This document shows, piece by piece, positions 16,151 to 43,957 of a stretch of DNA of 64,000 nt. The translations under genes were made by a program, and so were the position numbers. The stretch spans positions 229,911 through 293,910 of the forward strand of contig VXMB01000009.1 in NCBI GenBank assembly GCA_009841265.1. Reading direction: 5' to 3'. The notes beneath the pieces are model-generated. The model had not been told where the DNA came from. It did no database searches and saw only the letters and a program-made list of their open reading frames with translations. Numbering within the stretch: the stretch's first letter is position 1; each line of letters starts with the position of its first letter. This DNA comes from Gemmatimonadota bacterium (GTDB taxonomy: Bacteria; JAAXHH01).

Positions 16151-17641
16151 ATGGCGGATCAGCCTTACGGCCCCGGCGCCTTCGCCTTCCTGGCCGCCTA
16201 CCTCGTCTTCATGATCGTCCTGGGATACGTGGCCCGGTCCCGCCGCCGGGACGATTCCATGTCCTCCTTCTACCTGGCGGGCAAGAACCTGGGCGCCCTG
16301 GTTCTCTTCTTCACGCTCTACGCGACCCAGTACAGCGGAAACACGCTCATCGGCTATCCAGGCGAGGCCTACCGGCTGGGATACGCCTGGATCATGAGCG
16401 TCGGTTTCATGATGGCCATCGTGGTGGCCTACCTGCTCTTCGCGCCGCCGCTCTACCGCGCGTCGCAGCGGGGCAACTTCGTGACGCCGGGCGACTGGAT
16501 CACCCATCGATTCGGTGCGGACGGAAGATCCGGACTGACCCTCTTCGCCGGCGTGCTGTTCGTGGTCGCCATCGCCAACTACCTGCTCGCGCAGCTCCTG
16601 GCGGTTGGGCACATCGTTTCCGGCCTGTCTGGCGGCGCCATTCCGTTCTGGGCGGGCGTGGTGATCCTCGCGGTCATCATCCTGTTTTATGAGACCCTCG
16701 GCGGCATGCAGGCCGTGGCGTGGACCGACTGCATCCAGGGCCTGCTTCTCTTCGTCGGCCTGCTGGGCATGCTGGCCGCCGTGGTCGCGGGGAGCGACCG
16801 CCTCGGTGAAGCGACGGCGTGGATCATCGCCCATCAGCCTGCGAAAGCCGCGCTTCCCGAGGGAGAAACGATCCGTACCTGGATCAGCACCATCCTGCTG
16901 GTCGGCTTCGCCGCCGCCGTCTATCCCCAGGCCATACAACGCATCTTCGCCGCCCGGAGCACCCGCAGCCTGAAGCGGTCGTTCACCTTCATGGCCTTCA
17001 TGCCCCTGGCCACCATCTCGGCGGTCGTGCTCGTCGGGATCCTCGCCATCCCGCAGCTATCGGGCCTGGAGGGTGTCGAAACCGACCAGGTCATGCCCCG
17101 CCTGCTTCGGGTCTGGGCCGCCGAATCGCTCTGGCTCTACGTCATGACCGTGCTCGTCCTCACCGGCATCGTCGCGGCGATCATGTCGACGGCCGACTCC
17201 GTCCTGCTCAGCCTCTCTTCCCTGCTCGTCAAGGACGTGCTGGGCCGGTTCCGGATGGGTTCGCTCCCGGAAGCGCGCCATACCGCGTGGGGGAAGCGCC
17301 TGTCCTGGATCATCATGGCCATCCTGGTCCTCATCGCCCTGACGCCGGATCTCACCCTGTGGGGACTCATCGAGCTGAAGATGGAGGTGCTGATCCAGAC
17401 TGCCCCGCTGTTTGTACTTGGGGTGCTGTGGCCGCGATTCAGCGCGTCAGGCGCGGCCGCGGGCATGGCCGCGGGCACGGTACTCGCGGCCGGGCTGACC
17501 CTCGCGGGCATGGGCAAGGTCTGGGGCTGGCACGCCGGCGTGCTGGGCCTTGCGCTGAACGTGATTGTGGGGGTGGCGGTGAGTTGGGCAGGGCGTTCCC
17601 ATCGGTTCAGATCACCGAATATACTTGACTTTTGTAACTAA
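16151..17641 (+). CDS. sodium:solute symporter (SSS) family transporter
   Basis: 496 aa; 13-14 TM helices; SSS-family N-terminal region (YLAGKNLGALVLFFTLYATQYSGNTLIG). Confidence 0.8.
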   Translation: MADQPYGPGAFAFLAAYLVFMIVLGYVARSRRRDDSMSSFYLAGKNLGALVLFFTLYATQYSGNTLIGYPGEAYRLGYAWIMSVGFMMAIVVAYLLFAPPLYRASQRGNFVTPGDWITHRFGADGRSGLTLFAGVLFVVAIANYLLAQLLAVGHIVSGLSGGAIPFWAGVVILAVIILFYETLGGMQAVAWTDCIQGLLLFVGLLGMLAAVVAGSDRLGEATAWIIAHQPAKAALPEGETIRTWISTILLVGFAAAVYPQAIQRIFAARSTRSLKRSFTFMAFMPLATISAVVLVGILAIPQLSGLEGVETDQVMPRLLRVWAAESLWLYVMTVLVLTGIVAAIMSTADSVLLSLSSLLVKDVLGRFRMGSLPEARHTAWGKRLSWIIMAILVLIALTPDLTLWGLIELKMEVLIQTAPLFVLGVLWPRFSASGAAAGMAAGTVLAAGLTLAGMGKVWGWHAGVLGLALNVIVGVAVSWAGRSHRFRSPNILDFCN

Positions 17642-17705
17642 ATGACATATATTAGTCGCTACGTCGGAACATAGTCGGATGTCAATTTTCGAAAGGAGTA
17701 AAATC

Positions 17706-17957
17706 ATGAGAAGTGGCGATGAAATGTTAAAGCAGATCGTAGAGAAGTCCTCCCTGGATTCGGATTTCAGGCAAAAGCTGATCGCGGACCCGAAGTCGAC
17801 CATCTGTGAGGAACTGGACATTACGATGCCGGAATCCATGTCGATCCAGGTCCACGAAAGCGATATGCAGACGGTACATATCGCACTGCCCCCGGATGCG
17901 AATATCACCGAGGAGCAGCTTGAAGCCGTCTCGGCCGGACTCTGCTGCTGCTGGTAA
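17706..17957 (+). CDS. NHLP (nitrile-hydratase-leader-peptide) family RiPP precursor; predicted core LCCCW
   Basis: ORF 17679..17957; strong RBS aggag 7 nt before the second ATG (17706); leader KQIVEKSSLDSDFRQKLIADPKSTICEELDITMPESMSIQVHESDMQTVHIALPP...EEQLEAVSAG matches the NHLP consensus, including the EAV-[AS]-[GA]-G double-Gly-type cleavage site; followed by LCCCW-stop. Confidence 0.7.
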   Translation: MRSGDEMLKQIVEKSSLDSDFRQKLIADPKSTICEELDITMPESMSIQVHESDMQTVHIALPPDANITEEQLEAVSAGLCCCW

Positions 17958-18013
17958 ATCGAATCAACACACCGGTTGTCATGCGGATGCCTGGCAGTCG
18001 CATGATGTGGTAG

Positions 18014-18063
18014 ATAAAAAAAGTCCTCCCCGATCATCCTGGTCGAGGAGGACTTTTGCTTTG
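18014..18063. terminator. bidirectional rho-independent terminator between convergent genes
   Basis: AAAAAAAGTCCTCC-(18-nt loop)-GGAGGACTTTTGCTTT; perfect 8-bp GC-rich stem flanked by an A-run and a T-run. Confidence 0.6.
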
Positions 18064-18100: not shown

Positions 18101-19219
18101 TCAGTTCGCGTGCGCACCGGAAAGCACCATGTATAGATAGGCCTTGGCCTGTGCCAGCCGGTTTCCGGATATGACCAGCTTGATGTGATGTATGCCTCGC
18201 AACATGAGAAAAGGCCCGGTCTTGCCAAACAATGTCGTGGGTTTGGAAGCCCAGTCCGCAAGGGCCGCGAGCTTCTCCGGAACGACATAATCCTCATAGC
18301 CCAACGCATCCAGAACGGGATCCCAGTCGGTCATGCCGTCGATCCAGTAACGGGAATCCTGCGTGTACCTCTGCTTGACGATGGGCGTCAGCCCGAGTGT
18401 GGGCCCCAGCCCGTCTGCCCGCACGTCTACGTTTAAGCCAGCGCTCACGATGTCCGCCCTTTCCCTCAGGCGCGCGAGCACGGATTCGACCGCGGAAACC
18501 TGCCCCGGCCATCCGGTGTTTTCAAGATAAGGGCCGATTCCGTCCTCCGCGCTGAAACCCATGATCGCCAGGCGGACCGTGCGCTTCCGGGACGGAAACA
18601 CGCCGAAGGAGTCCAGGCGCGTGTCTTCCGGTTGCGCCAGGTAGACCCGTTCGGCGTTTTCTCGCTCAGCGGCTATCCTTTCCCAACCGACGCTGGAAAC
18701 GAGGGCGTCGACCACGATGCCGACGTCATGCTGGAGTCCGGCGCCGCCGAACAGCGTGCGTTCGTTGGGCCGCAGAAACAGGCCCGGCAACGATTTTTCT
18801 TCACCCGGCGCCGAGCCTACGTCATACTCCAGCATCAGCTTCCGCCCCACGATCTCTCTCAGCGACGAATGCTCGGCTTCCATTTCCCCGAACAGCCGCC
18901 TTACCGCTCCAGCCGTTTCATCCGTCTCGTCTGTCCGCGCTTGCGCTTCAAAAAAGTCCCCCGATCGGTTTCCGCTTGCCAGCGAGACGCCGAAGTCCGC
19001 CACGGGCCGGCTATCGTGCAGCGGAAGTTCAAAACCGAAGGGCTGGGCGCCCATCGTTATGGGCAGTTGCGTCGATTGTTTCAGTACAAGCCCCCATTCC
19101 CGCGCTCCGATCAGACCGGGTGAAATCCCATTTCGCAACTGCGCCAGCAACTCGGCCATCGTTTCGCCCTCTATGGCGAGACGATCCTGGGTGTGCAGGA
19201 CGGCATCGTCGATATTCAC
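18101..19219 (-). CDS. hypothetical protein, last gene of the RiPP operon (candidate tailoring enzyme)
   Basis: 372 aa; 9-nt gap after the YcaO gene; no motif recognised. Confidence 0.4.
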   Translation of the reverse strand: MNIDDAVLHTQDRLAIEGETMAELLAQLRNGISPGLIGAREWGLVLKQSTQLPITMGAQPFGFELPLHDSRPVADFGVSLASGNRSGDFFEAQARTDETDETAGAVRRLFGEMEAEHSSLREIVGRKLMLEYDVGSAPGEEKSLPGLFLRPNERTLFGGAGLQHDVGIVVDALVSSVGWERIAAERENAERVYLAQPEDTRLDSFGVFPSRKRTVRLAIMGFSAEDGIGPYLENTGWPGQVSAVESVLARLRERADIVSAGLNVDVRADGLGPTLGLTPIVKQRYTQDSRYWIDGMTDWDPVLDALGYEDYVVPEKLAALADWASKPTTLFGKTGPFLMLRGIHHIKLVISGNRLAQAKAYLYMVLSGAHAN

Positions 19220-19228: not shown

Positions 19229-21667
19229 TTACACGATGACCGGTGCGGGGTTCAATTCGGCCTCGGTCAGGGGTTGATTGCGAAAGCCCATGTCGACCGG
19301 CACGTCGTACAGGCGCCCCGGGGCGAATCTCGCCCAGAAATGGCGCATGCCCGGTACGATGACCCGCGCCACCGGCATGCCGATGTCCGGCCGGGTCTGG
19401 TCCAGCACGAGGAACTCCATGCCCCTGGCTTCGATCAGCGCGCGGCAGCAGTCCACGTCTTCCCGTGTATCCGCGGTCTCGATCGCCGGATACTGCGCGG
19501 CCTGCCTGAGCGGCGCGTCCGTCGACGGCGCCAGCCAGGCACAATCGGCGATTCGAGCCGTCTTCCACCAGTTTAGCGCCATGGGATCGTCGATCATGGG
19601 CTGGTTAGGTCGACCGGATCGGCCAGACTGTGCGGGCTGACCGGTTAGTCCGGACCGACCCGATTGACCGCCGCCTACGCTTCCACCGGGCCGGGGAAGC
19701 CACGTCAGGCACTGGTTCAACTCGCATAAGGCGCGCAGGGCCGCCAGTCGCGGGTCGGCATGGGCGCCCGCGCCGTATATGATGTCCTCGGTTTCCGCGT
19801 CCGGCCGCCGGGAAAGCGCAACGAAGGACGGAATGCCCGTATCGGACGTCACGTCGAGCATCCAGACCTCCCGCTCGCATCGTCCGTAATAGTCCGTGGC
19901 CGACGCGAGGAATGGGTCGTCAAAGCTGGAGAGATCCACCCCGGGGACGCTCAGCCGGTTATACCACCAGATGGCGAAGGCATCGCGCTCGACCAGTTCA
20001 TAGAAACCCTGCAGGATGGCCTCCTCCAGGGTGTTCCCCGCGGCGCAGCCGTTGGAATCGGCAATCACTTCGGCGGGTCCGCGCTGTTCCGGCGCCATGC
20101 TGTAGAGCATCGACGTCGGCAGGTATCGATGCCGTCCTTGCGTGAACGACCACACGGGCGTCCAGTCGATTTCGGCGGCGGGATTGAAACGAGGCGGGAC
20201 GATGTTGTAGGGGTGGCCTGCCGTGTTGATGCTTTCCGCGTTGTCGAGCTGGTCGTTACTGAACAACTGCACGTCGTTGGGGTGGATCGCCCGGTCTTCG
20301 GCGGCGAAATCGACGAATTGACCGCGGGTACGGATTTCGTCTCCGCTAAAAGCGCCTGAATGACGTTCGATCGCCTCGCAGAGGGCACTGGTCTCGGACT
20401 GTTCCCGCGTACTGCCCTTGCCGGCGCTTTTGCTGCGCAGGCTGCGCCTGAGCGAACTCAGGCTCCGGCTTCTCATACCGGGATTGCTCCCGGCCCAGTA
20501 GACGTGAAGCCAGGCGTCATGCTCACTGGTCGTGCGCGCCAGCCAGGTTACGATGCCGCTTACCGGGCTCACAAGGTGGCGGTATTGCGCCAGGGTGGCT
20601 TCCGGCGTCACGGCCCGCGCACCGCCGCTGTTGCGGTGGAGTTTGGGGCTGGCCTTGAGACGCAGCGGCACCGGCGGCCGGTCGGGCCGGTGCAGCGCTT
20701 CTTCGCCGCAGGCCGGACATTGCGGCCGGCGCAGGACCGTATGCGTCGAGCTCGCGACCGCGCCGACATGCAACGAAATTGCCTGTCCGTCGATCGGCGC
20801 CGATTCCTCCAGCACCAGCCACTTGACGATTTCAGCCGAAACCAGCCCGTATACCGCCTCAAGCGCGACAGGTTCGGCGGCGAACGGCTTGAAGGCGGCA
20901 TCCTCGCCGGCAACGTGCCGAAGGAACTGGTGGGCCTCCTTGTGGCCCCGTAGCCGGTGGGCCAGGCAGTCCCAGCAGGGGCCCTTCCGGTCCGCGTGAA
21001 AGACGGGTCCGAACAGCGCCTCCATGCCGTGCGGACGCACCAGCATCCACGGCGCTCCCGCCTCGAGCCGGCACCGATTCACCGCTGCAAACCGCGCGTC
21101 GAGGTAATCGTCGCATACGATAACCTTGAGCTGGACGTCGTCGTCGGCCACCACGTCGGCCACCACGCCGGCGCCGCTCGTTTCCAGCTGCCGGGACAGC
21201 CTTCCGTCGTCGCCGTCGACAGCGACGCGCGAATCCGCCAGCCGTTGTTCGACCCATCGGGGCGATGCGCCGAGGGACGTCCAGTATGCCGCCCGGGACC
21301 GGTCCATGCCATGATCGGCGGAGATGACATAGCCCCGGTCGGAGAGCGAAACGATCGCCGCGCGCACATCGGCCGCGGCATAGCGGCCCTCGAGGTCGGC
21401 GACGATGCCGGCCAGGGGACAGCGGCCGTCGAGAAGAGGAAGCAGATCGCAAAGCAGGGCGCCGTGCAGCAGTGTATCGAAGGACTCGGAAACCAGCAGC
21501 GTCTGCTGTGCGCCGATGACGTGGGATCGCAAGTGCGGGGTAAGCGCGGGAAGATCGACGAGGCCCAGGTCATCGGGGGTCGTTCTCGTGAGTTTCCCCT
21601 GGCGGGCATTCTTGCTGGTCGTCCCTGGCGTCCCGGGTTCCCGCGTCTTCTCGGCAGGCGCTTTCAT
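19229..21667 (-). CDS. fused E1-like docking domain / YcaO cyclodehydratase (TOMM heterocyclase, PatD/TruD-like architecture)
   Basis: 812 aa; N-terminal half with CxxC pairs (CWDC, QCPACG); C-terminal YcaO domain with LVSPVSGIV, SNGCAAGNTLEEAILQGFYELVERDA and a Pro-rich C-terminus; 4-nt overlap with the upstream gene. Confidence 0.8.
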   Translation of the reverse strand: MKAPAEKTREPGTPGTTSKNARQGKLTRTTPDDLGLVDLPALTPHLRSHVIGAQQTLLVSESFDTLLHGALLCDLLPLLDGRCPLAGIVADLEGRYAAADVRAAIVSLSDRGYVISADHGMDRSRAAYWTSLGASPRWVEQRLADSRVAVDGDDGRLSRQLETSGAGVVADVVADDDVQLKVIVCDDYLDARFAAVNRCRLEAGAPWMLVRPHGMEALFGPVFHADRKGPCWDCLAHRLRGHKEAHQFLRHVAGEDAAFKPFAAEPVALEAVYGLVSAEIVKWLVLEESAPIDGQAISLHVGAVASSTHTVLRRPQCPACGEEALHRPDRPPVPLRLKASPKLHRNSGGARAVTPEATLAQYRHLVSPVSGIVTWLARTTSEHDAWLHVYWAGSNPGMRSRSLSSLRRSLRSKSAGKGSTREQSETSALCEAIERHSGAFSGDEIRTRGQFVDFAAEDRAIHPNDVQLFSNDQLDNAESINTAGHPYNIVPPRFNPAAEIDWTPVWSFTQGRHRYLPTSMLYSMAPEQRGPAEVIADSNGCAAGNTLEEAILQGFYELVERDAFAIWWYNRLSVPGVDLSSFDDPFLASATDYYGRCEREVWMLDVTSDTGIPSFVALSRRPDAETEDIIYGAGAHADPRLAALRALCELNQCLTWLPRPGGSVGGGQSGRSGLTGQPAQSGRSGRPNQPMIDDPMALNWWKTARIADCAWLAPSTDAPLRQAAQYPAIETADTREDVDCCRALIEARGMEFLVLDQTRPDIGMPVARVIVPGMRHFWARFAPGRLYDVPVDMGFRNQPLTEAELNPAPVIV

Positions 21668-24105
21668 GCGTGTGCGGCGAGCGTATCGATCCGGGCGGCG
21701 GCGCGGGTGGCGGTTTCGTCGACCGCCGACGCCAGCGCATCGAAGTCCTGCTGCCCGCAGGCGTTCGCCACCAGGGATTTGACCTTCGCTCCCGCCGTTG
21801 CCGCGTCGAATCCGTCCTCTCCGACCAGCCGCATGACCCCCTGCAAGTCACGCCACAGGTTAGCGGCTTGCGCCAGCGGCTCGTCGCCGGCGGCATCGAA
21901 CACCGCCACGGCGGACGGCGCAGGATCGTCGAGGAAGTCACCGGCACGGTTCAACTGCAGGAAGCGCGCGGCCTGCTCGACATCGTTCAATCCGCCGGGC
22001 ATCTGGGCGTATGCGGACACACTCGTCTCTGCGCGGCCTGCCGGCTGTCCGCCCGATCCGGCGTACACCGCCGCGTCCGTACTGCATTCGGCCAGGACCC
22101 GGCGCCGCGCATCATCAAAGCGGCTTCCGATGCCGGAACCCTCGGTCTCGAAGACACAACGGGTCCGGGTGAGCACGGGAACCCCGCCGGAAGCCGGGTC
22201 ACGGGCTTGCTCGGCCAGATCGGAGAGCGATACCGCTGGCATGGCCTCCACGCCGGCGGAGACCGGGGAGAACAACAGGTTGTCCTGCGCCAGGTCGGCC
22301 AGGGCCTTGCGGAAACTCCGGCACAGGCGTTCATTCGCGCCGGACTGCGCGCCGTCATGGACGAACAGCATGTCGACCGCTACGCCGGGATAGGCTTCCC
22401 GGCTGGCCAGATCACCCAGGAAGATGGCGGCGACCTCGCCCACGCTGTCCGTGCCGTACCGCTCGCCGAAATCCGCCACCACGGAGGCAAGCACCGTCGA
22501 AACCGACGCTTCGGAGAGATTGGACAGCGCCGTCCGCGCCTCCGCCGGGAGCAGGTTTCCGCGCACCACGTGCATGCCGATCTGAAACGCCTTGTCGTTC
22601 GACCAGTTCCGCACGATCTCGGCGGTTTCCCTCGCGTCGACCACGGGCAACTCGACGATCAGGTCCTTCATTTCCTGAACGCCCATTTCGTAGGTCCAGT
22701 AGACCCGTGCAAGCCCGCGCCTTGCGATCGACTCGAACTCCTCGTCCTGCTCGAATCCCTTGGGCAGGTCGAGATCGAGGAATTCCTGTTCCTGCAGGTT
22801 ATCCAGGAGCTCCGGGTTCCGTTCGATCCATTTCGCGAGCCGCGGCGCGGCGCCAAATATCTCGACGATCATGTCAAAGGCGTCGGGACGCTTCGCGGCA
22901 AGGGGACTGTCGTAGACGCTCCAGTCTTCGATCTCCGGGTAGAAGTGCTTGCGCCACTGGTCCACCAGCGGGTCCATCTTTTCAAACCACTTTTTGGGCT
23001 TCAGGACGATGTTCATCATATCGGAGTAGGTGCCTGGCAGTTCCGGCGATTCGTCGAGACTGACCTGCAGCAGGGGATACTGGCGGGATGCCACCGCGTG
23101 ATGGTCGGCATGTCGCTGCGCATTGAAAAGCATCCAGTTGCTGAACTTCCAGTCGGCACTCCAGGAATGGCGGGGCATGATCTTCTCCCACCGGCCGTTT
23201 TCCAGGCGGACCCGGCGCAGGCCGTAGTGCTGGAAGTAGTTGCTGATCTTCATCGAAAAGACGCAGGACAGGCCGAGGAAGGCGAAGACCGGGACCGCCC
23301 AGATCCCGCCCATCCAGAAAACCAGTGCGTACCAGAACGCGACGCCGAAGCCGTAGCGCCAGAAGGGATTGCTGTAATGCCACATGGTCCGGCGGCGCCG
23401 TGCCAGGCGTTCTCGTGCCACTTCCCATGAATTGACGAGGTTGCTGACGATTTCCTTGGGCATGTACCGCCAGAAACTCTCCCCCTTCGGCGCGGACCCC
23501 ACGTCGTAGGGCGTGCCGACCAGGGCGTGGTGGATATAGACGTGCTCCGTGGCATACTGCGGATAGGAAGCGGAAGACAGCAGGAACTCGCCGATCCGGC
23601 GTTCCCAGGTCGTGCGCCGGTGAATCAGTTCGTGGCCTACCACGAACACGGCCTGTGCTTCCATCGTCAGTATGATGGCCAGCACAACGTCCTGCCACCA
23701 GACGAAGGGATCCGCCACCAGGATCTGCCACAGGCCGAAGACCAGGGTGGGCGGCCACAGAAACGCCCATGACCAGACCGGCAGATTGTGCCAGATCAGG
23801 CGGTGTTTCGGCGTCTTCCACGGATCCATTATGCGTCCGTCCCGTCCGAACACCCGGTCGAAGGACCAGGAAAGACTCATGAAGACCATGGGCGGCAGGA
23901 GCCACCATCCGCCCCACAACGCGGCGAGCAGAATCAACGGGAAAACGCCCAGCGGCAGGTAATGCGGGAGGGCGGTCAGGATGGACGGCTCGATCTCCTG
24001 CGTTGCATCGGCCTGGCCCGGTCCGGTGCCATTGGTTTCAGCGCGGTCGATTTCAACTGGATTTTGTGACATGGCTACACCTCCTTGGTCAGCATAACCT
24101 GGCAC
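21664..24105 (-). CDS. fusion: AlkB-like integral-membrane di-iron hydroxylase/desaturase (N) + GlnE-like nucleotidyltransferase domain (C)
   Basis: 813 aa; His boxes HELIHRR, EHVYIHH, NYFQHYGL and LFNAQRHADHHA align with the AlkB HELGHK/EHNRGHH/NYIEHYGL/LQRHSDHHA motifs; C-terminal FLGDLASREAYPGVAVDMLFVHDG matches the GlnE/GlnD NTase motif G-x-L-x-x-RE...D-x-D-L-x-F. Confidence 0.65.
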   Translation of the reverse strand: MPGYADQGGVAMSQNPVEIDRAETNGTGPGQADATQEIEPSILTALPHYLPLGVFPLILLAALWGGWWLLPPMVFMSLSWSFDRVFGRDGRIMDPWKTPKHRLIWHNLPVWSWAFLWPPTLVFGLWQILVADPFVWWQDVVLAIILTMEAQAVFVVGHELIHRRTTWERRIGEFLLSSASYPQYATEHVYIHHALVGTPYDVGSAPKGESFWRYMPKEIVSNLVNSWEVARERLARRRRTMWHYSNPFWRYGFGVAFWYALVFWMGGIWAVPVFAFLGLSCVFSMKISNYFQHYGLRRVRLENGRWEKIMPRHSWSADWKFSNWMLFNAQRHADHHAVASRQYPLLQVSLDESPELPGTYSDMMNIVLKPKKWFEKMDPLVDQWRKHFYPEIEDWSVYDSPLAAKRPDAFDMIVEIFGAAPRLAKWIERNPELLDNLQEQEFLDLDLPKGFEQDEEFESIARRGLARVYWTYEMGVQEMKDLIVELPVVDARETAEIVRNWSNDKAFQIGMHVVRGNLLPAEARTALSNLSEASVSTVLASVVADFGERYGTDSVGEVAAIFLGDLASREAYPGVAVDMLFVHDGAQSGANERLCRSFRKALADLAQDNLLFSPVSAGVEAMPAVSLSDLAEQARDPASGGVPVLTRTRCVFETEGSGIGSRFDDARRRVLAECSTDAAVYAGSGGQPAGRAETSVSAYAQMPGGLNDVEQAARFLQLNRAGDFLDDPAPSAVAVFDAAGDEPLAQAANLWRDLQGVMRLVGEDGFDAATAGAKVKSLVANACGQQDFDALASAVDETATRAAARIDTLAAHA

Positions 24106-24136: not shown

Positions 24137-25438
24137 TCAGGTTCGCAGGAAGGCGGCTAAACGCTCGAGCGCTTCGATACAGAACGCGGTGGTCACGGCT
24201 TCGGAGCCATGGCCTATTTGTCCTACCGCGCCGAACTTCAGTGTCTGATCGCCGAAGGCGAGCAGTTCCGGCCAACTGCCGTCCCCGCGTTGCGCGGTCA
24301 GGATGCGCCTCAACGGCCGCGTCGCGTCGGTCCTTTCCAGGCATCCCGCGTCGCAGAGCGTCGACACGGCCTGGGCGGTCTGCAGGACGTTGCCGTAACC
24401 GCCCTCTTCGTCCGCCAGGCCCAGGACACGATCCGCGAGGACCGGGCGCAGCCGATCCAGGGCGGGCGACACGCGTCGCACGGCCCGGGCGACCGCGTAA
24501 CAGATCGCGATCTCGTCGGGGTACCACTTGGACGCGTCCTTGAGATCGCCTTCGGTGATCAGCGCCTCCAGCCATCGCTGGGCATCCCTGGTTTCCGGGC
24601 AGTCGCCGAGCCAGGCGATGACGTTTGCGTTGACTACGGGGTCGGCTTCGATGCGAAATCGCGACACGACATCGGGTTCGTCGCCCTCCAGCATCCAGGT
24701 CATGAAGCGGCCTTCCCCATCGCGGTTCGCCAGTATCCGAGGTATGTTCCTCCCCAGCAGGATCCAGGGGTGCGTTCCGATCACCAGGGAACAGAGCGAG
24801 GTGCTGTCGAGATCCTGGGGAAGATGACGGTAATAGCGCCAGAATCCGGGATATTCGATGGTGTCGACCAGATAAGTGCTGGTCGCGGTGCAGATGGATC
24901 TGGCCTTCGCTTCCCGGCAATTTTCCAGGGCAAGGACGCAGAACGCCGAAATGAAGGGAGGCCTTTCGAAGTGCCGCGGCACCTTCGGATCGGCCACGTT
25001 GAACCGGATGCAGTGCCAGGCGCCATGCTCGTCTATCGTCGACTCAAGGAAGTCAAGGCCACGGCGGATGCTTTCTCTGGCCGCTTCCGCCAGCACCTCG
25101 GCGCCGGCGTCGCTACCGGGGACGCGCCCCGCCTCGTCACCCGGCGGCCGTAGGGGCGGGGCGGGATCGTGCATGGTCTTGCGCAGAAACGCGAAGGACG
25201 ACGCGCCGGTGCGCGCCTCCTCCCGTTCCTCCCTGGTAAATCGGTTGCGAGGGGGCAGGACGATATGGGTCGCGGCGGCGGTCTCTTCGTGCACGTGAAT
25301 CTCGTGGTCTTCAGCCATCGTCACGCCGAACTCCTGCTCGATGGTCTCTTTGGGCCTGGCAAGGAGACGTTTCCTCAATTCGTCGTCGTCGCCCGCTTTC
25401 AAGATAAGTAAATCGACCGCATTAGAGGACTTTTTCAT
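24137..25438 (-). CDS. NHLP-leader-like N-terminal domain fused to an alpha/alpha-toroid (prenyltransferase/terpene-cyclase-like repeat) domain
   Basis: 433 aa; the N-terminus DLLILKAGDDDELRKRLLARPKETIEQEFGVTMAEDHEIHVHEETAAATHIVLPP is NHLP-like but has no GG/core; the C-terminus carries repeated ...EEGGYGN...Q / ...RGDGSWPE...G-hairpin-like motifs. Confidence 0.55.
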   Translation of the reverse strand: MKKSSNAVDLLILKAGDDDELRKRLLARPKETIEQEFGVTMAEDHEIHVHEETAAATHIVLPPRNRFTREEREEARTGASSFAFLRKTMHDPAPPLRPPGDEAGRVPGSDAGAEVLAEAARESIRRGLDFLESTIDEHGAWHCIRFNVADPKVPRHFERPPFISAFCVLALENCREAKARSICTATSTYLVDTIEYPGFWRYYRHLPQDLDSTSLCSLVIGTHPWILLGRNIPRILANRDGEGRFMTWMLEGDEPDVVSRFRIEADPVVNANVIAWLGDCPETRDAQRWLEALITEGDLKDASKWYPDEIAICYAVARAVRRVSPALDRLRPVLADRVLGLADEEGGYGNVLQTAQAVSTLCDAGCLERTDATRPLRRILTAQRGDGSWPELLAFGDQTLKFGAVGQIGHGSEAVTTAFCIEALERLAAFLRT

Positions 25439-25488: not shown

Positions 25489-28440
25489 TCAGGCGATTTG
25501 CCGCCTGATCAGTTCCTTGAATACCCCGTCGGTCTCCTTCAGTTCGTTGAAAGAGCCGCTTTGGACGACCTTGCCGGCTTTCAGCACGTAGATGCGATCG
25601 GCCTGCTCGAGCGTGGACAGGCGATGGGCGATGACGAGGCGAGTGGAAGTCAGCGCGGCCAGGTTCCGCATCACGCTGGACTGGTTCTCGTTGTCCAGCC
25701 AGTTCGTCGCCTCGTCGAACAACATGATACGCGGGCTGCCGATCACCGAGCGGGCGATCGTGATGCGCTGGCTCTCGCCGCCCGACAGAACGGAACCGCT
25801 GGTGCCCACCATGGTCATCATGCCCATGGGCATGGCCTTGATCTGGTCTTCGACCTCGGCGGTCCGGACCGCCGCCCATACTTCATCGGTCGACACGCCT
25901 TCATAGTGGCTGACGAGGTTGTCCCAGAGATCCTGGGGATGGAGTCCGACCGATTGGGGTACCGCGCCGATCTTCCGGCGCACCTGTTTCAGATTCAGGT
26001 GCCTCAGGTCGCGCCCGTCGTAGTATACCGCCCCGGCGGTCGGCCAGTCGATGCCGAGCGCAAGCCGGAACAGGGTGCTCTTCCCGGCGCCGGATTCCCC
26101 GGCAATGGCGACGAATTCGCCGGGATGAGCGCGAATCGTTACGTCGTCGAGGATCAGTGGTCCGTCGGCGTCGTAGCGGAAAGAAACATGATCGAACAGG
26201 ATGTCCCCGCCCAGGTATTCGACCGGTTCGCCTTCCGTACCCGTCTCAGGCGCCGCCGAAAGCAGCGGACGCATCTGCTCGAAGGCCGGCAGCATGGAGG
26301 CCAGGGCGCCGATGGACTCGCCGAGCCGGGCGATGGTGGACTGAAACACGATGAAGACCGTGTAAACGACGAGAAAATCGCCGACCGGCATGTTGCGATC
26401 TCCCGCCTCCATTACCGTGAACAGGAGCACGCCGGCGGCAAGGAATGGCAGTGCGGCACCAAATGCCCGAGAATGCCCCTCCAGTGCGCCCAGTTCGATC
26501 TCCGCGCGCTTCTGTGCGCGATAATCCCGTGCCCAGATGGCGTAAGCCGAACCTTCCGCGTTATCCATGCGCAGCTTGGAAATGCCCCCCACGATCTGGA
26601 AGAGCCGGCCGGCCACGCGCCGGGCCGCCCTGATCATCCATCCGTATGGAGAGATCTGGCGCAATCCCAGCACCAGGGTGACCAGCAGCGAAACCAGGCT
26701 GAAGAGGAGGGTGACGATCCCGAGGGTGGTGTCGTAGAAGAAGATGACGCCGAAAACCGGAAGCAGGAATACCAGCGACAGGAAACAGTTGGCGACGACC
26801 CCCCGCAATCCGTCGCGGAGTTGCTGAAAGGTCATTCCCGACATGGCCAGGTCGCCCGCCGGATTGCGGTGCAGCATGCCGGGTGGAAGACGCATGAGAC
26901 GGTCCCAGAAGGCGGCTTCGACTCGGGAGGCCGAGCGCCCCTCCAGCCGCATCATCGCCATGTTCTGGAGCAGGTGCAGCATTGCGCCGAGCAGGCCGAA
27001 GGCCGCAATCGCCACGGCGACCGCGTATAGCATTCCAGCGCTTCCACCCGTCGTGATGTGGTTCGCTACGTACCCGAGGGCGAGCGCCGGCAGCAGCCGG
27101 ATCATGCCGTATGGAAGCCCGGCGATCACCATCCGTGCCCAGTCCGAGGCCGAGCCGCGCAGGGCGATGCCCAGCAGGTCCGCCGGTTTCACACCCCTTG
27201 CCGGCAGGGGCTGATAGAACATCCAGGCCTCTTCCGCCAGCGCGTCCGAACCGGCCAGGCGGGCCGCCGAGACCCGTGTGCGTCGATTGCCGGCCGGGTC
27301 AATTTGACGGTATCGTCCGAACATGCCCGGCAGCAGCGCCACGGGCCGACCGTCGTCGGCGCGGTAGGCCAGCAGCGCGTTGCTGTCACCGTGCCACCAG
27401 CGGTCCTCGGCGTTGAAACGCACGCGCCGGGCGCGCACGCCGGAAGCGTCAAGTATGTCCACGAGGCCGACGGGGGTTTCGGATTGGCCCGATCGCGCCG
27501 GGATCTTGAAATCGATGCCTTCATGACGGCCGATCAGCTGCAGGGCATCCGCAAGTGCCGTATCCTCGGCACCGTCATCCCGGTCGGTCGGAAGGTCGTA
27601 GATATTGTAGAGTCGCTGACGCGCGGTGTTCTCGGCCGTTCGGCGGCTCGCTGTCCGCGCCCGTTCGAGATTGACGGCATCTACAACGACCAGCCGGCGG
27701 TTCAGGCGCTCCAGGGTGAATGCGACCGCGTGGAACGAGGCGAGTGCCGCCAGCAGCCTGCCCTGCCGGGCCAGTGTTTCCGTTGACTGACCGGTCAGCG
27801 TCGCCTCGTCGACCAGGGTGAGCCAACTCGTCCGGGCCAGCGGGATGACCGTCTCGTGGGGGCTGCCCGTCTCCGCAAGTTCCGCCGTGTCGACGATCCC
27901 CATGAACAGGCCCGCGCCGGACGGCGGTTCAGAGATCCATACCACGCCGCGACGGACGGACAACGTACAGGGCGCCAGCGTCTGCGTCAGGCCGGGTTCG
28001 GCCAGCGCGGTCGGACGGGGAGGGGGGATGGCGAAACGCGCCAGCGTCTCCGTAATGGCGGTCAGCCACGTGTCGGTCTGTTCCGCCAGTTCCGCTGGAT
28101 CCACCCGGGACAGCAGGGAAGCCGGCAGACGCTTGAGCAGGGTGCCCGGCATTCCCCTGGCGATGATACTGAGCGTGGTGTCTGTTTCACCGCCCAACCG
28201 GTGCGGCGCGACCCCCGGCAGCAGCCAGCCCGATTCCCGGCGCAATAAGTGCTGCGGCGCCGCCTGCTCCGTCCCGTTTTTGAGTTCGACCAGGAACAGG
28301 TTGACGACGCCCTGGTCGATGAACCAGACGCTGTCCCGGTCGTCGAGGTAGACGGGCAGGTTACCTGCGCAGGGCACGGATTCGCCGAAGCGATCGGCGA
28401 GTTCGGCCAATGGCGAGTATTTCGGTTCGTTGGGCTGCAT
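25489..28440 (-). CDS. NHLM-type bacteriocin ABC transporter, second ATP-binding/permease subunit with a cNMP-binding-like N-domain (no peptidase)
   Basis: 983 aa; N-terminal ~150 aa non-peptidase domain, 6-TM permease, Walker A GESGAGKST, signature LSGGESQRITIARS, Walker B IMLFDEAT. Confidence 0.75.
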   Translation of the reverse strand: MQPNEPKYSPLAELADRFGESVPCAGNLPVYLDDRDSVWFIDQGVVNLFLVELKNGTEQAAPQHLLRRESGWLLPGVAPHRLGGETDTTLSIIARGMPGTLLKRLPASLLSRVDPAELAEQTDTWLTAITETLARFAIPPPRPTALAEPGLTQTLAPCTLSVRRGVVWISEPPSGAGLFMGIVDTAELAETGSPHETVIPLARTSWLTLVDEATLTGQSTETLARQGRLLAALASFHAVAFTLERLNRRLVVVDAVNLERARTASRRTAENTARQRLYNIYDLPTDRDDGAEDTALADALQLIGRHEGIDFKIPARSGQSETPVGLVDILDASGVRARRVRFNAEDRWWHGDSNALLAYRADDGRPVALLPGMFGRYRQIDPAGNRRTRVSAARLAGSDALAEEAWMFYQPLPARGVKPADLLGIALRGSASDWARMVIAGLPYGMIRLLPALALGYVANHITTGGSAGMLYAVAVAIAAFGLLGAMLHLLQNMAMMRLEGRSASRVEAAFWDRLMRLPPGMLHRNPAGDLAMSGMTFQQLRDGLRGVVANCFLSLVFLLPVFGVIFFYDTTLGIVTLLFSLVSLLVTLVLGLRQISPYGWMIRAARRVAGRLFQIVGGISKLRMDNAEGSAYAIWARDYRAQKRAEIELGALEGHSRAFGAALPFLAAGVLLFTVMEAGDRNMPVGDFLVVYTVFIVFQSTIARLGESIGALASMLPAFEQMRPLLSAAPETGTEGEPVEYLGGDILFDHVSFRYDADGPLILDDVTIRAHPGEFVAIAGESGAGKSTLFRLALGIDWPTAGAVYYDGRDLRHLNLKQVRRKIGAVPQSVGLHPQDLWDNLVSHYEGVSTDEVWAAVRTAEVEDQIKAMPMGMMTMVGTSGSVLSGGESQRITIARSVIGSPRIMLFDEATNWLDNENQSSVMRNLAALTSTRLVIAHRLSTLEQADRIYVLKAGKVVQSGSFNELKETDGVFKELIRRQIA

Positions 28441-30650
28441 CAGTTCGACCTGACCAGTTTGTAGTACGTGCTGTCCCGGTCGGCGATCAACTCGTCGTGC
28501 GTGCCCCGTTGTACCGTAATGCCCTGGTCCAGCACGATGATCTCATCGCAGTCCCGCACGGTACTCAGGCGGTGCGCCACGATCAGGCAGGTGACCCCGC
28601 GCCGCCGCAGCGCATCATCGACGTATTCCTCCGTGGCCGCATCGAGGGCGCTGGTGGCCTCGTCCAGGATGAGCACCGTGGGGTTGCCCACCAGCGCGCG
28701 GGCGATTTCCAGCCGTTGGCGCTGGCCGCCGCTGAAGTTCGCCCCTCCTTCTTCGACGAGCGTCGCATAGCCGTGGGGCCTGAGCAGGACTTCGTCGTGA
28801 ATCTGGGCGTCCCGCGTCGCGGCAAAGAGGACTTCGTCCGGGATGGCCGGGTTCCACAGCGTGATATTGTCGCGCAGGGACGCGGAAAAGAGCACGATCT
28901 CCTGGTCCACCATGGAGATGGATTGCCGCAGCACCTCCTCGGGGATCTGATCGCGCAAATGGTCGTCAAACATGATCTCGCCCGACCAGGGCTGGTAGAC
29001 CCCCGATACAAGCCGCGCGAGGGTCGATTTGCCGGATCCGCTTGGACCGACCACGGCGATCCGCTGGCCCGGTTTGATCTCGAGGCTGAAGTCCTTGATC
29101 AGGGGCGGCCGGCTCCGGTTGTAACCGAAGGTGACGTTACGCAGTTCCAGCTGGCCGGCGAGCTGGAGCCGGCCGTTGAACGTGTGTATCGCATCCGATT
29201 CCGGGTTTCTGCGACGAAAGACCGGATCCTCATCGGTTTTGGATATGTCCTCGAGCCGTTGCAGATCGGTTTCGAGGGCCTGGCGGTTTTCGGCGAACTC
29301 CAGGAAGCGCTCGACGGGGGCCAGGAACATCTCCGCCAGGATGAAGAATCCCACCAGCATGCCCAGCGACATTTCTCCCTGCATGACCATCATGCCGCCG
29401 ATGCCCAGGATCGCCGCACTGCGCAGCGCGTCGACCAGTCCCGGCAGCGAGGCGTTGACGGAGCCCAGTTCCGAATACAGCTGTCGTGCGCGCAACTCCC
29501 GGGCCTGTTGCCCGCTCCATCGCGAGAAAAACCGGTCGTCCGCCCCCGTCATCCGCAGATTGTCGGCATGGCTCAGCATCTGCATGCCGAGACCGATCAG
29601 CAACCCCTGCTCCCGCCTCATCGTCTGACTGCGGACGGCTCTGAGGTTGTTGAGAAAACGGGCAAGCACCGCGTGCAGCAGCGCCAGCACGATCACGATC
29701 AGCGTGAGTACGGTGTCGAAGGCGAACATCGCAATGAGGAACACCGCGCTCATGGCCATGTCGATCACGAGCACCAGGAACTGGTCCGCCAGGTTTTTGG
29801 CGATTCGGTCGGTGGACGACACCCGGTCAGTGATGTCGCCGGCCAGCCTGTTTTCAAAGAACTCCACCGGCAGGCGAAGCAGCCGTGACATCCCGTTGCT
29901 GTAGCCGGCTACCGATACACGGACCGCGAGCCGCTTGAGGAACCGGTGCTTGAGGAGAGACAGGACATACACCAGCACGCCTCCGCCCAGCAAGGCGGTT
30001 ACCAATCCGCCCCAGGTCCCGTGCTTAGCCATGACGTCGTCGACGAAAACGCCGAGCGATGCCGGAACGACCAGGGTCAACATCGTCAGCATGAGTCCGC
30101 AGGCCACCACGCCGGTCAGCAGTCGCCATGACCCGGCGATCAGGCCGTTCAGTTGCCTGAACAGGTCGGGTTGCTCGCCGCCGGGCGTAAAGTCCTCGCC
30201 GCGCTTGAAGCGAAGCGCAATGCCGCTGTAGCTCTTCTCGAACTCTTCGGCGGTGACCCTGCGCCGTCCCGTGGAAGGGTCGTTGAGATAGTAGTAGCGG
30301 CTGTCGATTCCTTCGAGGACGAGGAAATGGCTGAACTGCCAGAACAACACCAGCGGAAATTCCAGCATTTTCAGTTGCTCGGCGCGCACGCTGAGGCCGT
30401 TACACTCGAGACCGTAGTGCCGGGAGGCACGCAGGATGCTCGCGGCACTGCTTCCGTCCCGGCTCACCTCGCATTTTTCCCGCAGTTCGGTGAGCGGCAC
30501 CCATCTCCCGAAGTATCCCAGTACGATGCCGAGACAGGCCGCGCCGCACTCCGATGCGTGCATCTGCAGCAGAACGGGCGTGGATATCCGCTGCGCCGAG
30601 TCGTCCGCGGCGTTCTTGTTGCCGGCTTGTTTGGTCGTGCTCACCGTCAT
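28440..30650 (-). CDS. NHLM-type bacteriocin ABC transporter with N-terminal C39 peptidase domain (leader-cleaving exporter)
   Basis: 736 aa; C39 catalytic Cys context QMHASECGAACLGIVLGYFG, TM domain, Walker A GPSGSGKST, LSGGQRQR, ILDEATSALD. Confidence 0.8.
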   Translation of the reverse strand: MTVSTTKQAGNKNAADDSAQRISTPVLLQMHASECGAACLGIVLGYFGRWVPLTELREKCEVSRDGSSAASILRASRHYGLECNGLSVRAEQLKMLEFPLVLFWQFSHFLVLEGIDSRYYYLNDPSTGRRRVTAEEFEKSYSGIALRFKRGEDFTPGGEQPDLFRQLNGLIAGSWRLLTGVVACGLMLTMLTLVVPASLGVFVDDVMAKHGTWGGLVTALLGGGVLVYVLSLLKHRFLKRLAVRVSVAGYSNGMSRLLRLPVEFFENRLAGDITDRVSSTDRIAKNLADQFLVLVIDMAMSAVFLIAMFAFDTVLTLIVIVLALLHAVLARFLNNLRAVRSQTMRREQGLLIGLGMQMLSHADNLRMTGADDRFFSRWSGQQARELRARQLYSELGSVNASLPGLVDALRSAAILGIGGMMVMQGEMSLGMLVGFFILAEMFLAPVERFLEFAENRQALETDLQRLEDISKTDEDPVFRRRNPESDAIHTFNGRLQLAGQLELRNVTFGYNRSRPPLIKDFSLEIKPGQRIAVVGPSGSGKSTLARLVSGVYQPWSGEIMFDDHLRDQIPEEVLRQSISMVDQEIVLFSASLRDNITLWNPAIPDEVLFAATRDAQIHDEVLLRPHGYATLVEEGGANFSGGQRQRLEIARALVGNPTVLILDEATSALDAATEEYVDDALRRRGVTCLIVAHRLSTVRDCDEIIVLDQGITVQRGTHDELIADRDSTYYKLVRSN

Positions 30651-36158: not shown

Positions 36159-36170
36159 ATCATACCTCGT

Positions 36171-41292: not shown

Positions 41293-41350
41293 CCCTGTTC
41301 TCCGTCTTCCTCTTGCTTAAAAACTACGTTAGTCAAAGAAGGATACTTAG

Positions 41351-43816: not shown

Positions 43817-43957
43817 GACTTCTTACTCCTCATCAGTTTTAAGTGTTAAAAGGAGAATCTTCAGAATCCTATGTTAGGTTTTCAAACTACCGCCTATCTC
43901 ACCCCACATGTCCTTTATCGCTTGAACATTCAGCCAATGATCGTGTTTCCGGCCGCG

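What the first reader, a model, noticed from the sequence alone, without database searches (positions are those of the whole stretch)
17679..17957. Precursor start codon and tiny Cys3-Trp core; convergent placement behind a bidirectional terminator
The ORF finder starts at 17679, but a near-perfect RBS (gaaaggagt) sits 7 nt upstream of the ATG at 17706. The protein (83 aa) aligns along its length with NHLP leaders (…FRQKLIADPKST…ELDITMPE…QVHESD…LPP…EEQLEAVSAG). Only five residues (LCCCW) follow the double-Gly-type site. Such a short core is rare for NHLP/proteusin-type precursors. The gene is transcribed convergently to the rest of the cluster and shares the hairpin terminator at 18014-18063. 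Only one precursor is present, whereas NHLP systems are often paralogously expanded.
Basis: seen in the sequence. Interest (0 to 1): 0.8.

Follow-up and report, generated by a model that had tools for sequence, protein, structure and literature searches.

The report
SrpE sponge-symbiont RiPP precursor gene

Summary
An 83-aa ORF (17706-17957, +) begins at the ATG that follows a GGAG ribosome-binding site. It passes the NHLP leader model (61.8 bits, cut-off 50.9) and ends in SAG|LCCCW. It converges on the modification operon across a bidirectional hairpin terminator.

It is not new. The protein is 76% identical (95% similar, no gaps) to the published SrpE of the "srp" (sponge-derived RiPP proteusin) cluster, and the LCCCW core is identical. 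The halogenase at 31429-32724 is 83% identical to the characterised Trp-6 brominase SrpI. Published work shows that the YcaO enzyme SrpC turns the three Cys into thiazolines and that SrpI brominates the C-terminal Trp, guided by the leader. Relatives occur in at least 369 species-level genomes from many phyla. They are nearly always 83 aa long and end in L[C/S/T]CCW.

The papers I could read do not mention three other conserved genes, which look like terpenoid tailoring enzymes:
- a protein with an ABBA prenyltransferase fold;
- a second NHLP-like domain fused to a class II terpene-cyclase domain;
- an AlkB-like oxygenase fusion.

The mature product, still called cryptic, may therefore be lipidated. 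This is inference only.

The parts
17625..17653 (+). Sigma-70-like promoter of srpE (TTGACT, 17 nt spacer, TATATT)
   Evidence: 10 of 12 matches. The sequence is conserved in the closest relatives. Function is inferred.
17679..17681 (+). Upstream in-frame ATG: the mechanical ORF start, used in some NCBI records (92 aa); rejected as the true start
   Evidence: It has no RBS and is absent from most related loci. 92-aa annotations exist in some NCBI records.
17691..17699 (+). Ribosome-binding site GAAAGGAGT (GGAG at 17695-17698), 7 nt before the ATG
   Evidence: a GGAG-type site is conserved at this position across phyla.
17706..17957 (+). srpE: 83-aa NHLP/proteusin precursor (252 nt including the stop codon)
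   Evidence: TIGR03793 scores 61.8 bits. It is 76% identical and 95% similar to published SrpE. 116 of 120 relatives are 83 aa.
17706..17939 (+). Leader, residues 1-78, ending in SAG. It contains LPPDA and NITEEQL, the published L(X)4L enzyme-contact motif with Ile in place of the first Leu
   Evidence: Alignment A1. The motif's role comes from PMC10858898.
17940..17954 (+). Core LCCCW
   Evidence: It is identical to the published SrpE core. Position 80 varies among C, S and T in relatives.
17977..18007 (+). First 3'-UTR hairpin (CATGCG...CGCATG)
   Evidence: A hairpin at the same offset, with covarying stems, occurs in many lineages.
18012..18063 (.). Bidirectional intrinsic terminator: stem 18019-18057, flanked by a 7-A run (18016-18022) and TTTTGCTTT (18054-18062)
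   Evidence: GC-rich hairpins followed by T runs are seen after srpE in most related loci.
18101..19219 (-). 372-aa protein with the ABBA (PT-barrel) aromatic prenyltransferase fold; candidate Trp prenyltransferase
19229..21667 (-). SrpC-type fused cyclodehydratase: winged-helix domain (presumed leader-recognition element), E1-like domain and YcaO domain
   Evidence: TIGR03604 278 bits, TIGR03882 138 bits, PF02624 311 bits, PF21084.
21664..24105 (-). AlkB-like membrane di-iron oxygenase (residues about 119-392) fused to a GlnE-like domain. The true start is probably 33 nt downstream of the ORF start
   Evidence: PDB 8f6t alkane 1-monooxygenase, E = 1e-45. His boxes are visible. The GlnE match is weak. 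An 802-aa gene is called in an identical locus.
24137..25438 (-). NHLP-leader-like domain (residues 1-78) fused to a class II terpene-cyclase-like domain with an invariant D208-L-D-S-T212 motif
   Evidence: 35% identity to SrpE. TIGR03793 scores 42.6 bits, below the cut-off. The profile hits drimenol synthase 9mhs_B (E = 6e-7), AstC (3e-4) and squalene-hopene cyclase (SHC, 0.02), and the DxDTT-type motif aligns.
25489..28440 (-). NHLP-system ABC exporter subunit 2
   Evidence: TIGR03797 scores 649 bits. This is the best hit but lies below the 709 cut-off.
28440..30650 (-). NHLP-system ABC exporter with an N-terminal C39 peptidase domain, which removes the leader
   Evidence: TIGR03796 scores 867 bits (cut-off 853) and PF03412 116 bits. 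Candidate Gln/Cys/His/Asp catalytic motifs can be read in the sequence.
30658..31215 (-). Short (185 aa) HlyD-like secretion protein
   Evidence: The N-terminus matches TIGR03794 at 29.9 bits, below the cut-off. It is conserved at full length in other loci.
31429..32724 (-). SrpI: flavin-dependent peptidyl-Trp 6-brominase
   Evidence: 83% identical over 426 aa to the characterised SrpI, with Lys84 conserved. PF04820 scores 151 bits.

Best explanation
The ORF 17706-17957 is srpE, the precursor peptide gene of an srp (sponge-derived RiPP proteusin) biosynthetic cluster in a sponge-symbiont genome that NCBI labels Gemmatimonadota.

Proposed mechanism. The gene has its own strong promoter, a strong ribosome-binding site and a stem-loop-rich 3' end. 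From these it is transcribed as a short, abundant monocistronic mRNA, convergent to the enzyme operon.

The 78-residue nitrile-hydratase-like leader folds into a small domain. Together with its C-terminal I/L(X)4L segment it docks the peptide onto the modifying enzymes.
- The fused E1-like/YcaO enzyme (19229-21667) cyclodehydrates Cys80-82 to three consecutive thiazolines.
- SrpI (31429-32724) brominates C6 of the C-terminal Trp83.
- The C39-peptidase ABC exporter (28440-30650, with 25489-28440) cuts after Ser-Ala-Gly78 and exports the modified pentapeptide.

Status of each step.
- Shown here: gene anatomy, family membership, homology to the characterised proteins, and conservation.
- Shown in the literature for close homologues: thiazoline formation, 6-bromination, and leader dependence through L(X)4L.
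- Inferred: cleavage by the native C39 domain, the transcription unit, and further tailoring.

Further tailoring is likely. The ABBA-fold protein (18101-19219) may prenylate the indole. The NHLP-fused class II cyclase (24137-25438) may cyclise the prenyl chain. The AlkB-like fusion (21664-24105) may oxidise it.
For: Identity and family.
- The NHLP model passes.
- 76% identity and 95% similarity to published SrpE, with no gaps and an identical LCCCW core.
- 83% identity to SrpI, including the catalytic Lys84.
- YcaO, E1-like and winged-helix domains are present in one protein.
- The NHLM C39 ABC transporter scores above its cut-off, and candidate C39 catalytic motifs can be read in the sequence.

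Conservation.
- 560 protein clusters match, and 369 species-level genomes encode a relative.
- Core tails are L[C/S/T]CCW. The one variable core position varies only among residues that can be cyclodehydrated.
- The exact protein occurs on metagenome contigs with the same gene order.

Literature.
- SrpC makes three thiazolines in the LCCCW core, and SrpI brominates the C-terminal Trp in a leader-dependent way (PMC10286304; PMC10858898).
- The 252-bp precursor gene is disproportionately transcribed in sponges (bioRxiv 10.1101/2023.06.09.544420).

Tailoring inference.
- Searches support the ABBA fold.
- One search supports the cyclase domain, with its DxD(S/T)T motif aligned.
- One search supports the AlkB homology.
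- The three genes co-occur with srpE in 66-74 of 78 genomes.
- The related mpp cluster pairs an SrpI-like brominase with a Trp prenyltransferase and a terpene synthase (PMC11791876; PMC12715784).
Against: - No chemistry or expression data exist for this locus itself.
- The mature natural product has never been reported in the papers I could read, so the end point of the pathway is unknown.
- ABC2 (649 bits against 709) and the HlyD-like protein (30 against 156) score below their family cut-offs.
- The ABBA fold alone does not prove activity. PatF has this fold and, from my own knowledge and not checked here, is reported to be inactive.
- The cyclase assignment rests on an E = 6e-7 profile match, and its AF2 model failed (pLDDT 44).
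- No isoprenyl-diphosphate synthase was seen in the cluster.
Confidence: 0.93

Rival explanations
1. The real product is the 92-aa protein that starts at ATG 17679, as some NCBI records annotate it, so the leader is nine residues longer.
For: ATG 17679 is in frame and open. 92-aa versions exist in GenBank for close relatives, for example MXX02367.1.
Against: There is no Shine-Dalgarno sequence before 17679. The predicted transcript would start only about 20 nt upstream of it. That ATG is absent outside the closest relatives, while the GGAG plus the 83-aa start is found in essentially every related locus. 116 of 120 relatives are 83 aa. The published SrpE begins MRSGDD.
Confidence: 0.03
2. The peptide is a scaffold rather than the product. 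As with pearlin or ammosamide-type pathways, the modified C-terminal Trp, or a Cys-Trp fragment, is excised as a small brominated alkaloid and the remainder is recycled.
For: The core is extremely short and ends in Trp. Sponges are rich in small bromo-indole alkaloids (one search gives context). No mature srp peptide has been reported.
Against: The cluster has no PEARL/LanB-like enzyme and no dedicated C-terminal excision protease. It does encode a C39 leader peptidase and exporter, which is typical for release of the whole core. Leader cleavage of the analogue by LahT150 yields the intact modified LCCCW.
Confidence: 0.04
3. The 433-aa NHLP-fused protein is itself a second substrate or export cargo of the system. 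Its leader-like domain would be cleaved at RTG|A by the C39 exporter, so it would not be a tailoring enzyme.
For: Its first 78 residues align end to end with the SrpE leader, including LPP and a Gly at the equivalent boundary position. It is conserved next to the exporter genes.
Against: Its C-terminal 330 residues are a conserved enzyme-like domain with an invariant catalytic-type D-L-D-S-T motif that aligns to the drimenol synthase motif. The I/L(X)4L motif of SrpE is not kept: the equivalent segment reads RFTREERE. From general knowledge, cargos of C39 exporters are usually small.
Confidence: 0.1

Closest known systems
SrpE / srp cluster (sponge-derived RiPP proteusins; Nguyen et al., J Am Chem Soc 2021, 143:10221; follow-ups PMC10286304, PMC10858898)
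   Same: The length (83 aa), the LCCCW core and the SAG boundary are the same. Identity is 76% and similarity 95%. An SrpI orthologue (83% identical) and a YcaO cyclodehydratase lie in the cluster. The gene occurs in sponge-associated MAGs of many phyla.
   Different: There are only allelic differences: NITEEQL instead of NLTEEQL, and LPPDA instead of LPPDP. The Ile variant is the majority form in databases. The position of the halogenase gene relative to srpE varies between lineages.
MprE / mpr cluster of Methylovulum psychrotolerans (NHLP precursors with YcaO MprC and azoline oxidase MprD; PMC12455567)
   Same: It has an NHLP leader with an L(X)4L motif, a fused leader-recognition/YcaO cyclodehydratase and azoline formation. 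Its leaders are accepted by SrpI.
   Different: mpr has ten precursors with longer cores and an FMN oxidase that makes azoles. The cluster here has one precursor and a five-residue core. No SagB/MprD-type dehydrogenase turned up in the Pfam and NCBIfam scans.
mpp cluster of Moorena producens (PMC11791876, PMC12715784)
   Same: It combines an SrpI-like leader-dependent Trp brominase with a peptide Trp prenyltransferase (MppC), a terpene synthase (MppD) and an oxygenase. I infer the same enzyme combination here.
   Different: mpp has a Nif11-type leader and a lanthipeptide core made by LanM. The enzymes here are an ABBA-fold protein with no detectable sequence similarity to known families, and a cyclase carrying its own NHLP-like domain.
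RiPPs with polycyclic isoprenoid moieties (Hubrich et al., Chem 2024; known to me only through the review PMC13290415)
   Same: Trp of a ribosomal peptide, including proteusins, is prenylated and the chain is then cyclised by a class II-type cyclase domain.
   Different: Those maturases are prenyltransferase-cyclase fusions (NctPC, ChrPC). Here the two activities would sit on separate proteins, with the cyclase fused to a leader-like domain. Nothing has been shown experimentally for srp.
Cyanobactin pathway (PatE/LynD, PagF/PatF)
   Different: Cyanobactin leaders are short and unstructured. Cyanobactins are macrocyclised by PatG-type proteases. They have no NHLP leader and no C39 exporter.

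Membership tests
NHLP leader peptide family RiPP precursor (TIGR03793; proteusin precursors) | Score at or above the curated cut-off of the leader model | tested here: met
   61.8 bits against a cut-off of 50.9; residues 6-78 cover model positions 4-77 of 77.
NHLP leader peptide family RiPP precursor (TIGR03793; proteusin precursors) | Homology to the C-terminal part of the nitrile hydratase alpha subunit, without its metal-binding Cys motif | tested here: met
   Matches to PF02979 and TIGR01323 cover profile positions 115-168 only. No CxLCSC-type motif is present in the leader.
NHLP leader peptide family RiPP precursor (TIGR03793; proteusin precursors) | Double-Gly-type cleavage motif at the end of the leader, followed by a variable core | tested here: met
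   S76-A77-G78 is invariant in 25 of 25 aligned relatives and is followed by L[C/S/T]CCW. The authors of PMC10286304 mark SAG as the leader/core boundary.
NHLP leader peptide family RiPP precursor (TIGR03793; proteusin precursors) | Co-located NHLP-type export system (C39 ABC transporter, second ABC subunit, HlyD) | tested here: inconclusive
   ABC1 scores 867 bits, above its 853 cut-off. ABC2 scores 649, below 709. Only a 185-aa HlyD-like N-terminal homologue is present, at 30 bits against 156.
srp cluster precursor SrpE | LCCCW core directly at the C-terminus | tested here: met
   The core is identical to the published one.
srp cluster precursor SrpE | Full-length similarity to the published SrpE leader | tested here: met
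   63 of 83 residues identical, 79 of 83 similar, no gaps, E = 3e-51.
srp cluster precursor SrpE | L(X)4L enzyme-contact motif (NLTEEQL) and the proline-rich LPPDP motif | tested here: met
   The window has NITEEQL and LPPDA. Ile at the first position is the database majority and the consensus reported. Whether Ile supports SrpI as well as Leu does was not tested.
srp cluster precursor SrpE | Clustered with the brominase SrpI | tested here: met
   The protein at 31429-32724 is 83% identical to characterised SrpI and keeps Lys84.
srp cluster precursor SrpE | Clustered with the YcaO cyclodehydratase SrpC | tested here: met
   A fused winged-helix/E1-like/YcaO protein lies at 19229-21667.
srp cluster precursor SrpE | Three thiazolines and 6-bromo-Trp actually installed on this peptide | not testable with these tools
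   This needs expression and mass spectrometry. It has been shown for homologues and chimeras in PMC10286304.
[quoted passage not shown] | YcaO cyclodehydratase with an E1-like partner acting on Cys/Ser/Thr of the core | tested here: met
   TIGR03604 at 278 bits and TIGR03882 at 138 bits in one protein. Core position 80 varies only among C, S and T.
[quoted passage not shown] | FMN-dependent azoline dehydrogenase (SagB type) that makes azoles | tested here: not met
   No nitroreductase or SagB-type hit appeared in any cluster ORF scanned. This is consistent with the thiazolines reported in the literature.
ABBA aromatic prenyltransferases (for the 372-aa neighbour) | PT-barrel of repeated alpha-beta-beta-alpha units | tested here: met
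   [not shown]
ABBA aromatic prenyltransferases (for the 372-aa neighbour) | Sequence membership of a known prenyltransferase family, and demonstrated prenyl transfer | tested here: not met
   No hit in Pfam, NCBIfam or PDB sequences, even with a profile. Activity cannot be tested here.
Class II terpene cyclases of the drimenyl/AstC type (for the 433-aa neighbour) | Alpha/alpha-barrel domain with a catalytic DxD(T/D)T motif | tested here: inconclusive
   The profile hits 9mhs_B at E = 6e-7 and 22ty_A at 3e-4. The invariant QDLDST aligns to DDLDTT. PF13243 matches below its cut-off. The fold could not be confirmed because the AF2 model had pLDDT 44.

The most novel reading that the evidence does not exclude
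The mature srp product, the most widely distributed RiPP of sponge microbiomes, may not be the simple bromo-tri-thiazoline pentapeptide assumed so far. It may instead be a peptide-terpenoid hybrid.

In this reading the C-terminal (bromo)Trp is prenylated by a previously unrecognised ABBA-fold enzyme (18101-19219). The isoprenoid chain is then cyclised by a class II terpene cyclase that carries its own copy of the NHLP leader fold (24137-25438). That extra domain may let it dock alongside, or in place of, the substrate leader. Finally the chain is oxidised by an AlkB-like di-iron enzyme (21664-24105).

A leader-like domain fused to a tailoring enzyme would be a new way of engaging a substrate in RiPP biosynthesis.
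Probability: 0.25. Interest if true: 0.65.

Novelty: already known. Interest (0 to 1): 0.3.

Why it matters
The finding itself re-identifies a published system. Its main value is correct annotation: the 83-aa start rather than the 92-aa form found in some GenBank records, the five-residue core, and the cluster borders.

The surroundings carry more weight. srp clusters are present in hundreds of symbiont species and are among the most highly transcribed biosynthetic genes in sponges, yet their product and its role are unknown. Three conserved but unstudied genes do encode a prenyltransferase-fold protein, a terpene-cyclase-like domain and an AlkB-like oxygenase. If these enzymes act as predicted, the searches for the natural product have been looking for the wrong mass. 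The pathway would also offer a leader-guided route to brominated, lipidated peptides.

Tried and rejected
- Original srp paper. PMC8780398 is not held, so I could not check how its authors annotated the accessory genes. Hubrich et al. 2024 (PMC11484575) is not held either. I know its content only through a review and from memory.
- 433-aa protein. AF2 prediction from a 27-sequence alignment failed (pLDDT 43.6), so I ran no fold search on it. I used a profile search against PDB sequences instead.
- 372-aa protein. Sequence searches found nothing in Pfam, NCBIfam or PDB, with either a single sequence or a profile. Only the structure comparison was informative.
- 3' UTRs. RNAalifold on a MAFFT alignment of 37 UTRs predicted no consensus structure, because the alignment puts the stems out of register. 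A per-sequence hairpin scan does show a hairpin at a conserved offset, with different but complementary arms. I did not build a covariance model.
- Terminator flag. My crude automatic flag for A/T tracts flanking the hairpin under-calls. I therefore describe terminator conservation qualitatively.
- Nitrile hydratase remnant. I considered whether the leader is a remnant of a working nitrile hydratase with a Cys-rich metal site, CCC resembling CxLCSC. I rejected this because the homology covers only the region after the metal site.
- Extra precursors. None were found in the 64 kb window.

Full report
**1. What is in the sequence**

The mechanical ORF 17679-17957 (92 aa) contains a second in-frame ATG at 17706. 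GAAAGGAGT occupies 17691-17699, with GGAG 7 nt before ATG 17706.

A near-consensus sigma-70-type promoter (TTGACT, 17 nt, TATATT; 17625-17653; 10 of 12 matches) lies just upstream. It would place the transcript start about 20 nt before ATG 17679, which has no ribosome-binding site of its own.

From 17706 the product is 83 aa: MRSGDEMLKQIVEKSSLDSDFRQKLIADPKSTICEELDITMPESMSIQVHESDMQTVHIALPPDANITEEQLEAVSAG-LCCCW.

Downstream there is a first hairpin at about 17977-18007. After it comes a long stem (18019-18057) flanked by seven A on one side and TTTTGCTTT on the other. This stem folds as a terminator on both strands (z = -3.7 and -4.3; none of 200 shuffles folded as well).

The next gene (18101-19219) and seven further genes run on the minus strand towards this hairpin.

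**2. Is it more than chance?**

- The NCBIfam NHLP leader model scores 61.8 bits (cut-off 50.9) across the whole leader.
- A search of 5.8 billion proteins returned 560 clusters. The best 120 are 78-98% identical and 116 of them are exactly 83 aa.
- Their C-termini are LCCCW (108), LSCCW (10) and LTCCW (2). The one variable core position varies only among residues that a cyclodehydratase can use.
- A scan of one genome per bacterial species found 369 genomes encoding a relative. NCBI labels them Gemmatimonadota, Latescibacterota, Alpha- and Gammaproteobacteria, Nitrospinota, Nitrospirota, Acidobacteriota and Binatia, and all are MAGs.
- In these loci a GGAG-type site always precedes the 83-aa start, whereas the upstream ATG exists only in the closest relatives.
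- Some GenBank records nevertheless annotate the 92-aa form.

**3. What it is**

The literature search identified the system at once. The 'srp' (sponge-derived RiPP proteusin) clusters were discovered by Nguyen et al. (J Am Chem Soc 2021, cited).

- The published SrpE leader, given in the supplement of PMC10286304, followed by LCCCW, is 76% identical and 95% similar to the window protein, without gaps.
- The published SrpI brominase sequence is 83% identical to the product of 31429-32724, including the catalytic Lys84.
- The papers state that the YcaO enzyme SrpC cyclodehydrates the three contiguous Cys of the LCCCW core to thiazolines.
[quoted passage not shown] SrpI acts only when the leader is attached, and it contacts the NLTEEQL, or L(X)4L, segment.
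- A metatranscriptome study of four sponges found that 'a single 252 bp gene' of these clusters, the precursor, is disproportionately transcribed. It reported the ITEEQL variant seen here.
- The exact window protein occurs on sponge and other marine metagenome contigs with the same neighbours. One 310-kb contig (locus L002) matches all the cluster proteins tested over the stretch it holds, the full-length ones at 100% identity.
- The 433-aa neighbour is 100% identical to a GenBank protein from a 'Gemmatimonadetes bacterium' MAG.

**4. The cluster**

| Coordinates (strand) | Product | Evidence |
|---|---|---|
| 18101-19219 (-) | 372 aa, no known family | |
| 19229-21667 (-) | 812 aa: winged helix + E1-like + YcaO (TIGR03604 278 bits, TIGR03882 138 bits) | |
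| 21664-24105 (-) | 813 aa: FA_desaturase/AlkB-like + GlnE-like | |
| 24137-25438 (-) | 433 aa | see section 6 |
| 25489-28440 (-) | NHLP-system ABC subunit 2 | |
| 28440-30650 (-) | NHLP-system ABC subunit 1 with C39 peptidase (867 bits; candidate Gln/Cys/His/Asp motifs) | |
| 30658-31215 (-) | short HlyD-like protein | |
| 31429-32724 (-) | SrpI | |

No SagB-type azoline dehydrogenase was found, which fits the thiazolines reported in the literature.

**5. Is the layout conserved?**

- In 70 of 78 species-level genomes with enough flanking sequence, the 372-aa gene lies immediately downstream of srpE on the opposite strand. The median gap is 144 nt.
- Within 10 kb of srpE, 74 genomes hold the YcaO gene and 74 the 372-aa gene. 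The 433-aa gene is there in 67, the 813-aa gene in 66 and ABC2 in 63.
- SrpI is within 10 kb in 31 genomes, and its position varies.
- GC-rich hairpins followed by T runs sit in the short intergenic gap in most lineages.

The convergent, self-contained precursor unit is thus a hallmark of the family. It offers a simple explanation for the precursor's much higher transcript level: its own promoter and terminator, and a structured 3' end. This explanation is inferred, not shown.

**6. 'Only one precursor'**

A profile built from SrpE relatives and run against all six frames of the window finds srpE (182 bits) and one other match (48 bits). That match is the first 78 residues of the 433-aa protein.

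This N-terminal domain is 35% identical to the SrpE leader from end to end. It also matches nitrile hydratase alpha subunits and the solved NHLP structure 8tb1.

So there is one stand-alone precursor, but the leader fold is used a second time, fused to an enzyme-like domain.

**7. Accessory genes (beyond the finding)**

- **The C-terminal domain of the 433-aa protein.** Searched as a 22-sequence profile against PDB sequences, it hits the class II cyclase domain of bacterial drimenol synthase (E = 6e-7) and fungal AstC (3e-4). Squalene-hopene cyclase follows at about 0.02. Its invariant Q-D-L-D-S-T aligns with the D-D-L-D-T-T of drimenol synthase.
- **The 813-aa protein.** Residues 119-392 are a clear homologue of alkane 1-monooxygenase AlkB (E = 1e-45). 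The HELIH, EHVYIHH, NYFQHYG and QRHADHH motifs are all present.

Two precedents exist. The Moorena mpp cluster combines an SrpI-like brominase with the Trp prenyltransferase MppC and a terpene synthase. Prenyltransferase-cyclase fusions that decorate Trp of ribosomal peptides were reported in 2024.

I therefore consider it plausible, but unproven, that the srp product is prenylated on Trp, with the chain then cyclised and oxidised. The papers I could read mention only SrpC and SrpI. I could not read the 2021 paper, so I cannot say whether this has already been proposed.

**8. Verdict**

The feature is an already known gene of an already known, well-studied family, so its interest as a finding is low. 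What interest remains lies in the unstudied tailoring genes next to it.

Noticed in passing
[not shown]
   Followed up: partly
window 24137-25438 (-): This 433-aa protein has two parts. Its N-terminal 78 residues are a second NHLP-leader-like domain, 35% identical to SrpE. The rest resembles the class II terpene-cyclase domain of drimenol synthase and AstC, with an invariant QDLDST motif aligned to their DxDTT motif. The AF2 model failed, so the fold is unconfirmed.
   Followed up: partly
window 21664-24105 (-): An AlkB-type membrane di-iron monooxygenase domain (E = 1e-45 to PDB 8f6t, all His boxes present) is fused to a GlnE-like nucleotidyltransferase-like half. In that half the usual second Asp of the metal-binding motif seems to be missing (the sequence reads ...VAVDMLF...). 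The fusion is conserved in 66 of 78 srp loci, and its role is unknown.
   Followed up: partly
window 17958-18063, and the equivalent stretch in L009-L088: The srpE 3' UTR carries a hairpin at a conserved offset, about +20 to +55 nt after the stop codon. Its arms differ between lineages but stay complementary (CATGCGGAT/ATCCGCATG, GGATTCGGA/TCCGAATCC, GAATGCAG/CTGCATTC). Many proteobacterial loci add a GCCGGC(N5)GCCGGC hairpin before it. The terminator follows. It may be an mRNA-stabilising element. RNAalifold on a MAFFT alignment gave no consensus structure.
   Followed up: partly
window 32838-48203 (-): A defence island lies directly beside the srp cluster, partly with low GC (42-53% between 41 and 45 kb). 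It holds a complete Hma system: HmaC 32838-36158, HmaB methylase 38020-41292 and HmaA helicase 44532-48203. Inserted in it are a PDC-M07A-type AAA ATPase (36740-38023) with a small partner ORF (36171-36800), and a TIR-STAND protein (41351-43816; the TIR domain matches ThsB).
   Followed up: partly
window 30658-31215 (-): The HlyD-type component of the NHLP export system is only 185 aa long and matches just the first 57 positions of the 421-position family model. It is conserved at this short length in other phyla, so it is not a pseudogene.
   Followed up: partly
window 17679-17957 (+) versus GenBank records: Some NCBI MAG annotations, for example MXX02367.1 and MXW03656.1, give the precursor as 92 aa, starting at the upstream ATG. 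Comparative evidence favours the 83-aa form.
   Followed up: yes
window 15048-15890 (+) and 49912-52032 (+): Two proteins with NHL-repeat or ScyF/ScyE-like beta-propeller domains were found, plus an arylsulfatase (59784-61439) and several enolase-superfamily sugar-acid dehydratases. These look like ordinary genome context for a sponge symbiont and were not examined further.
   Followed up: no
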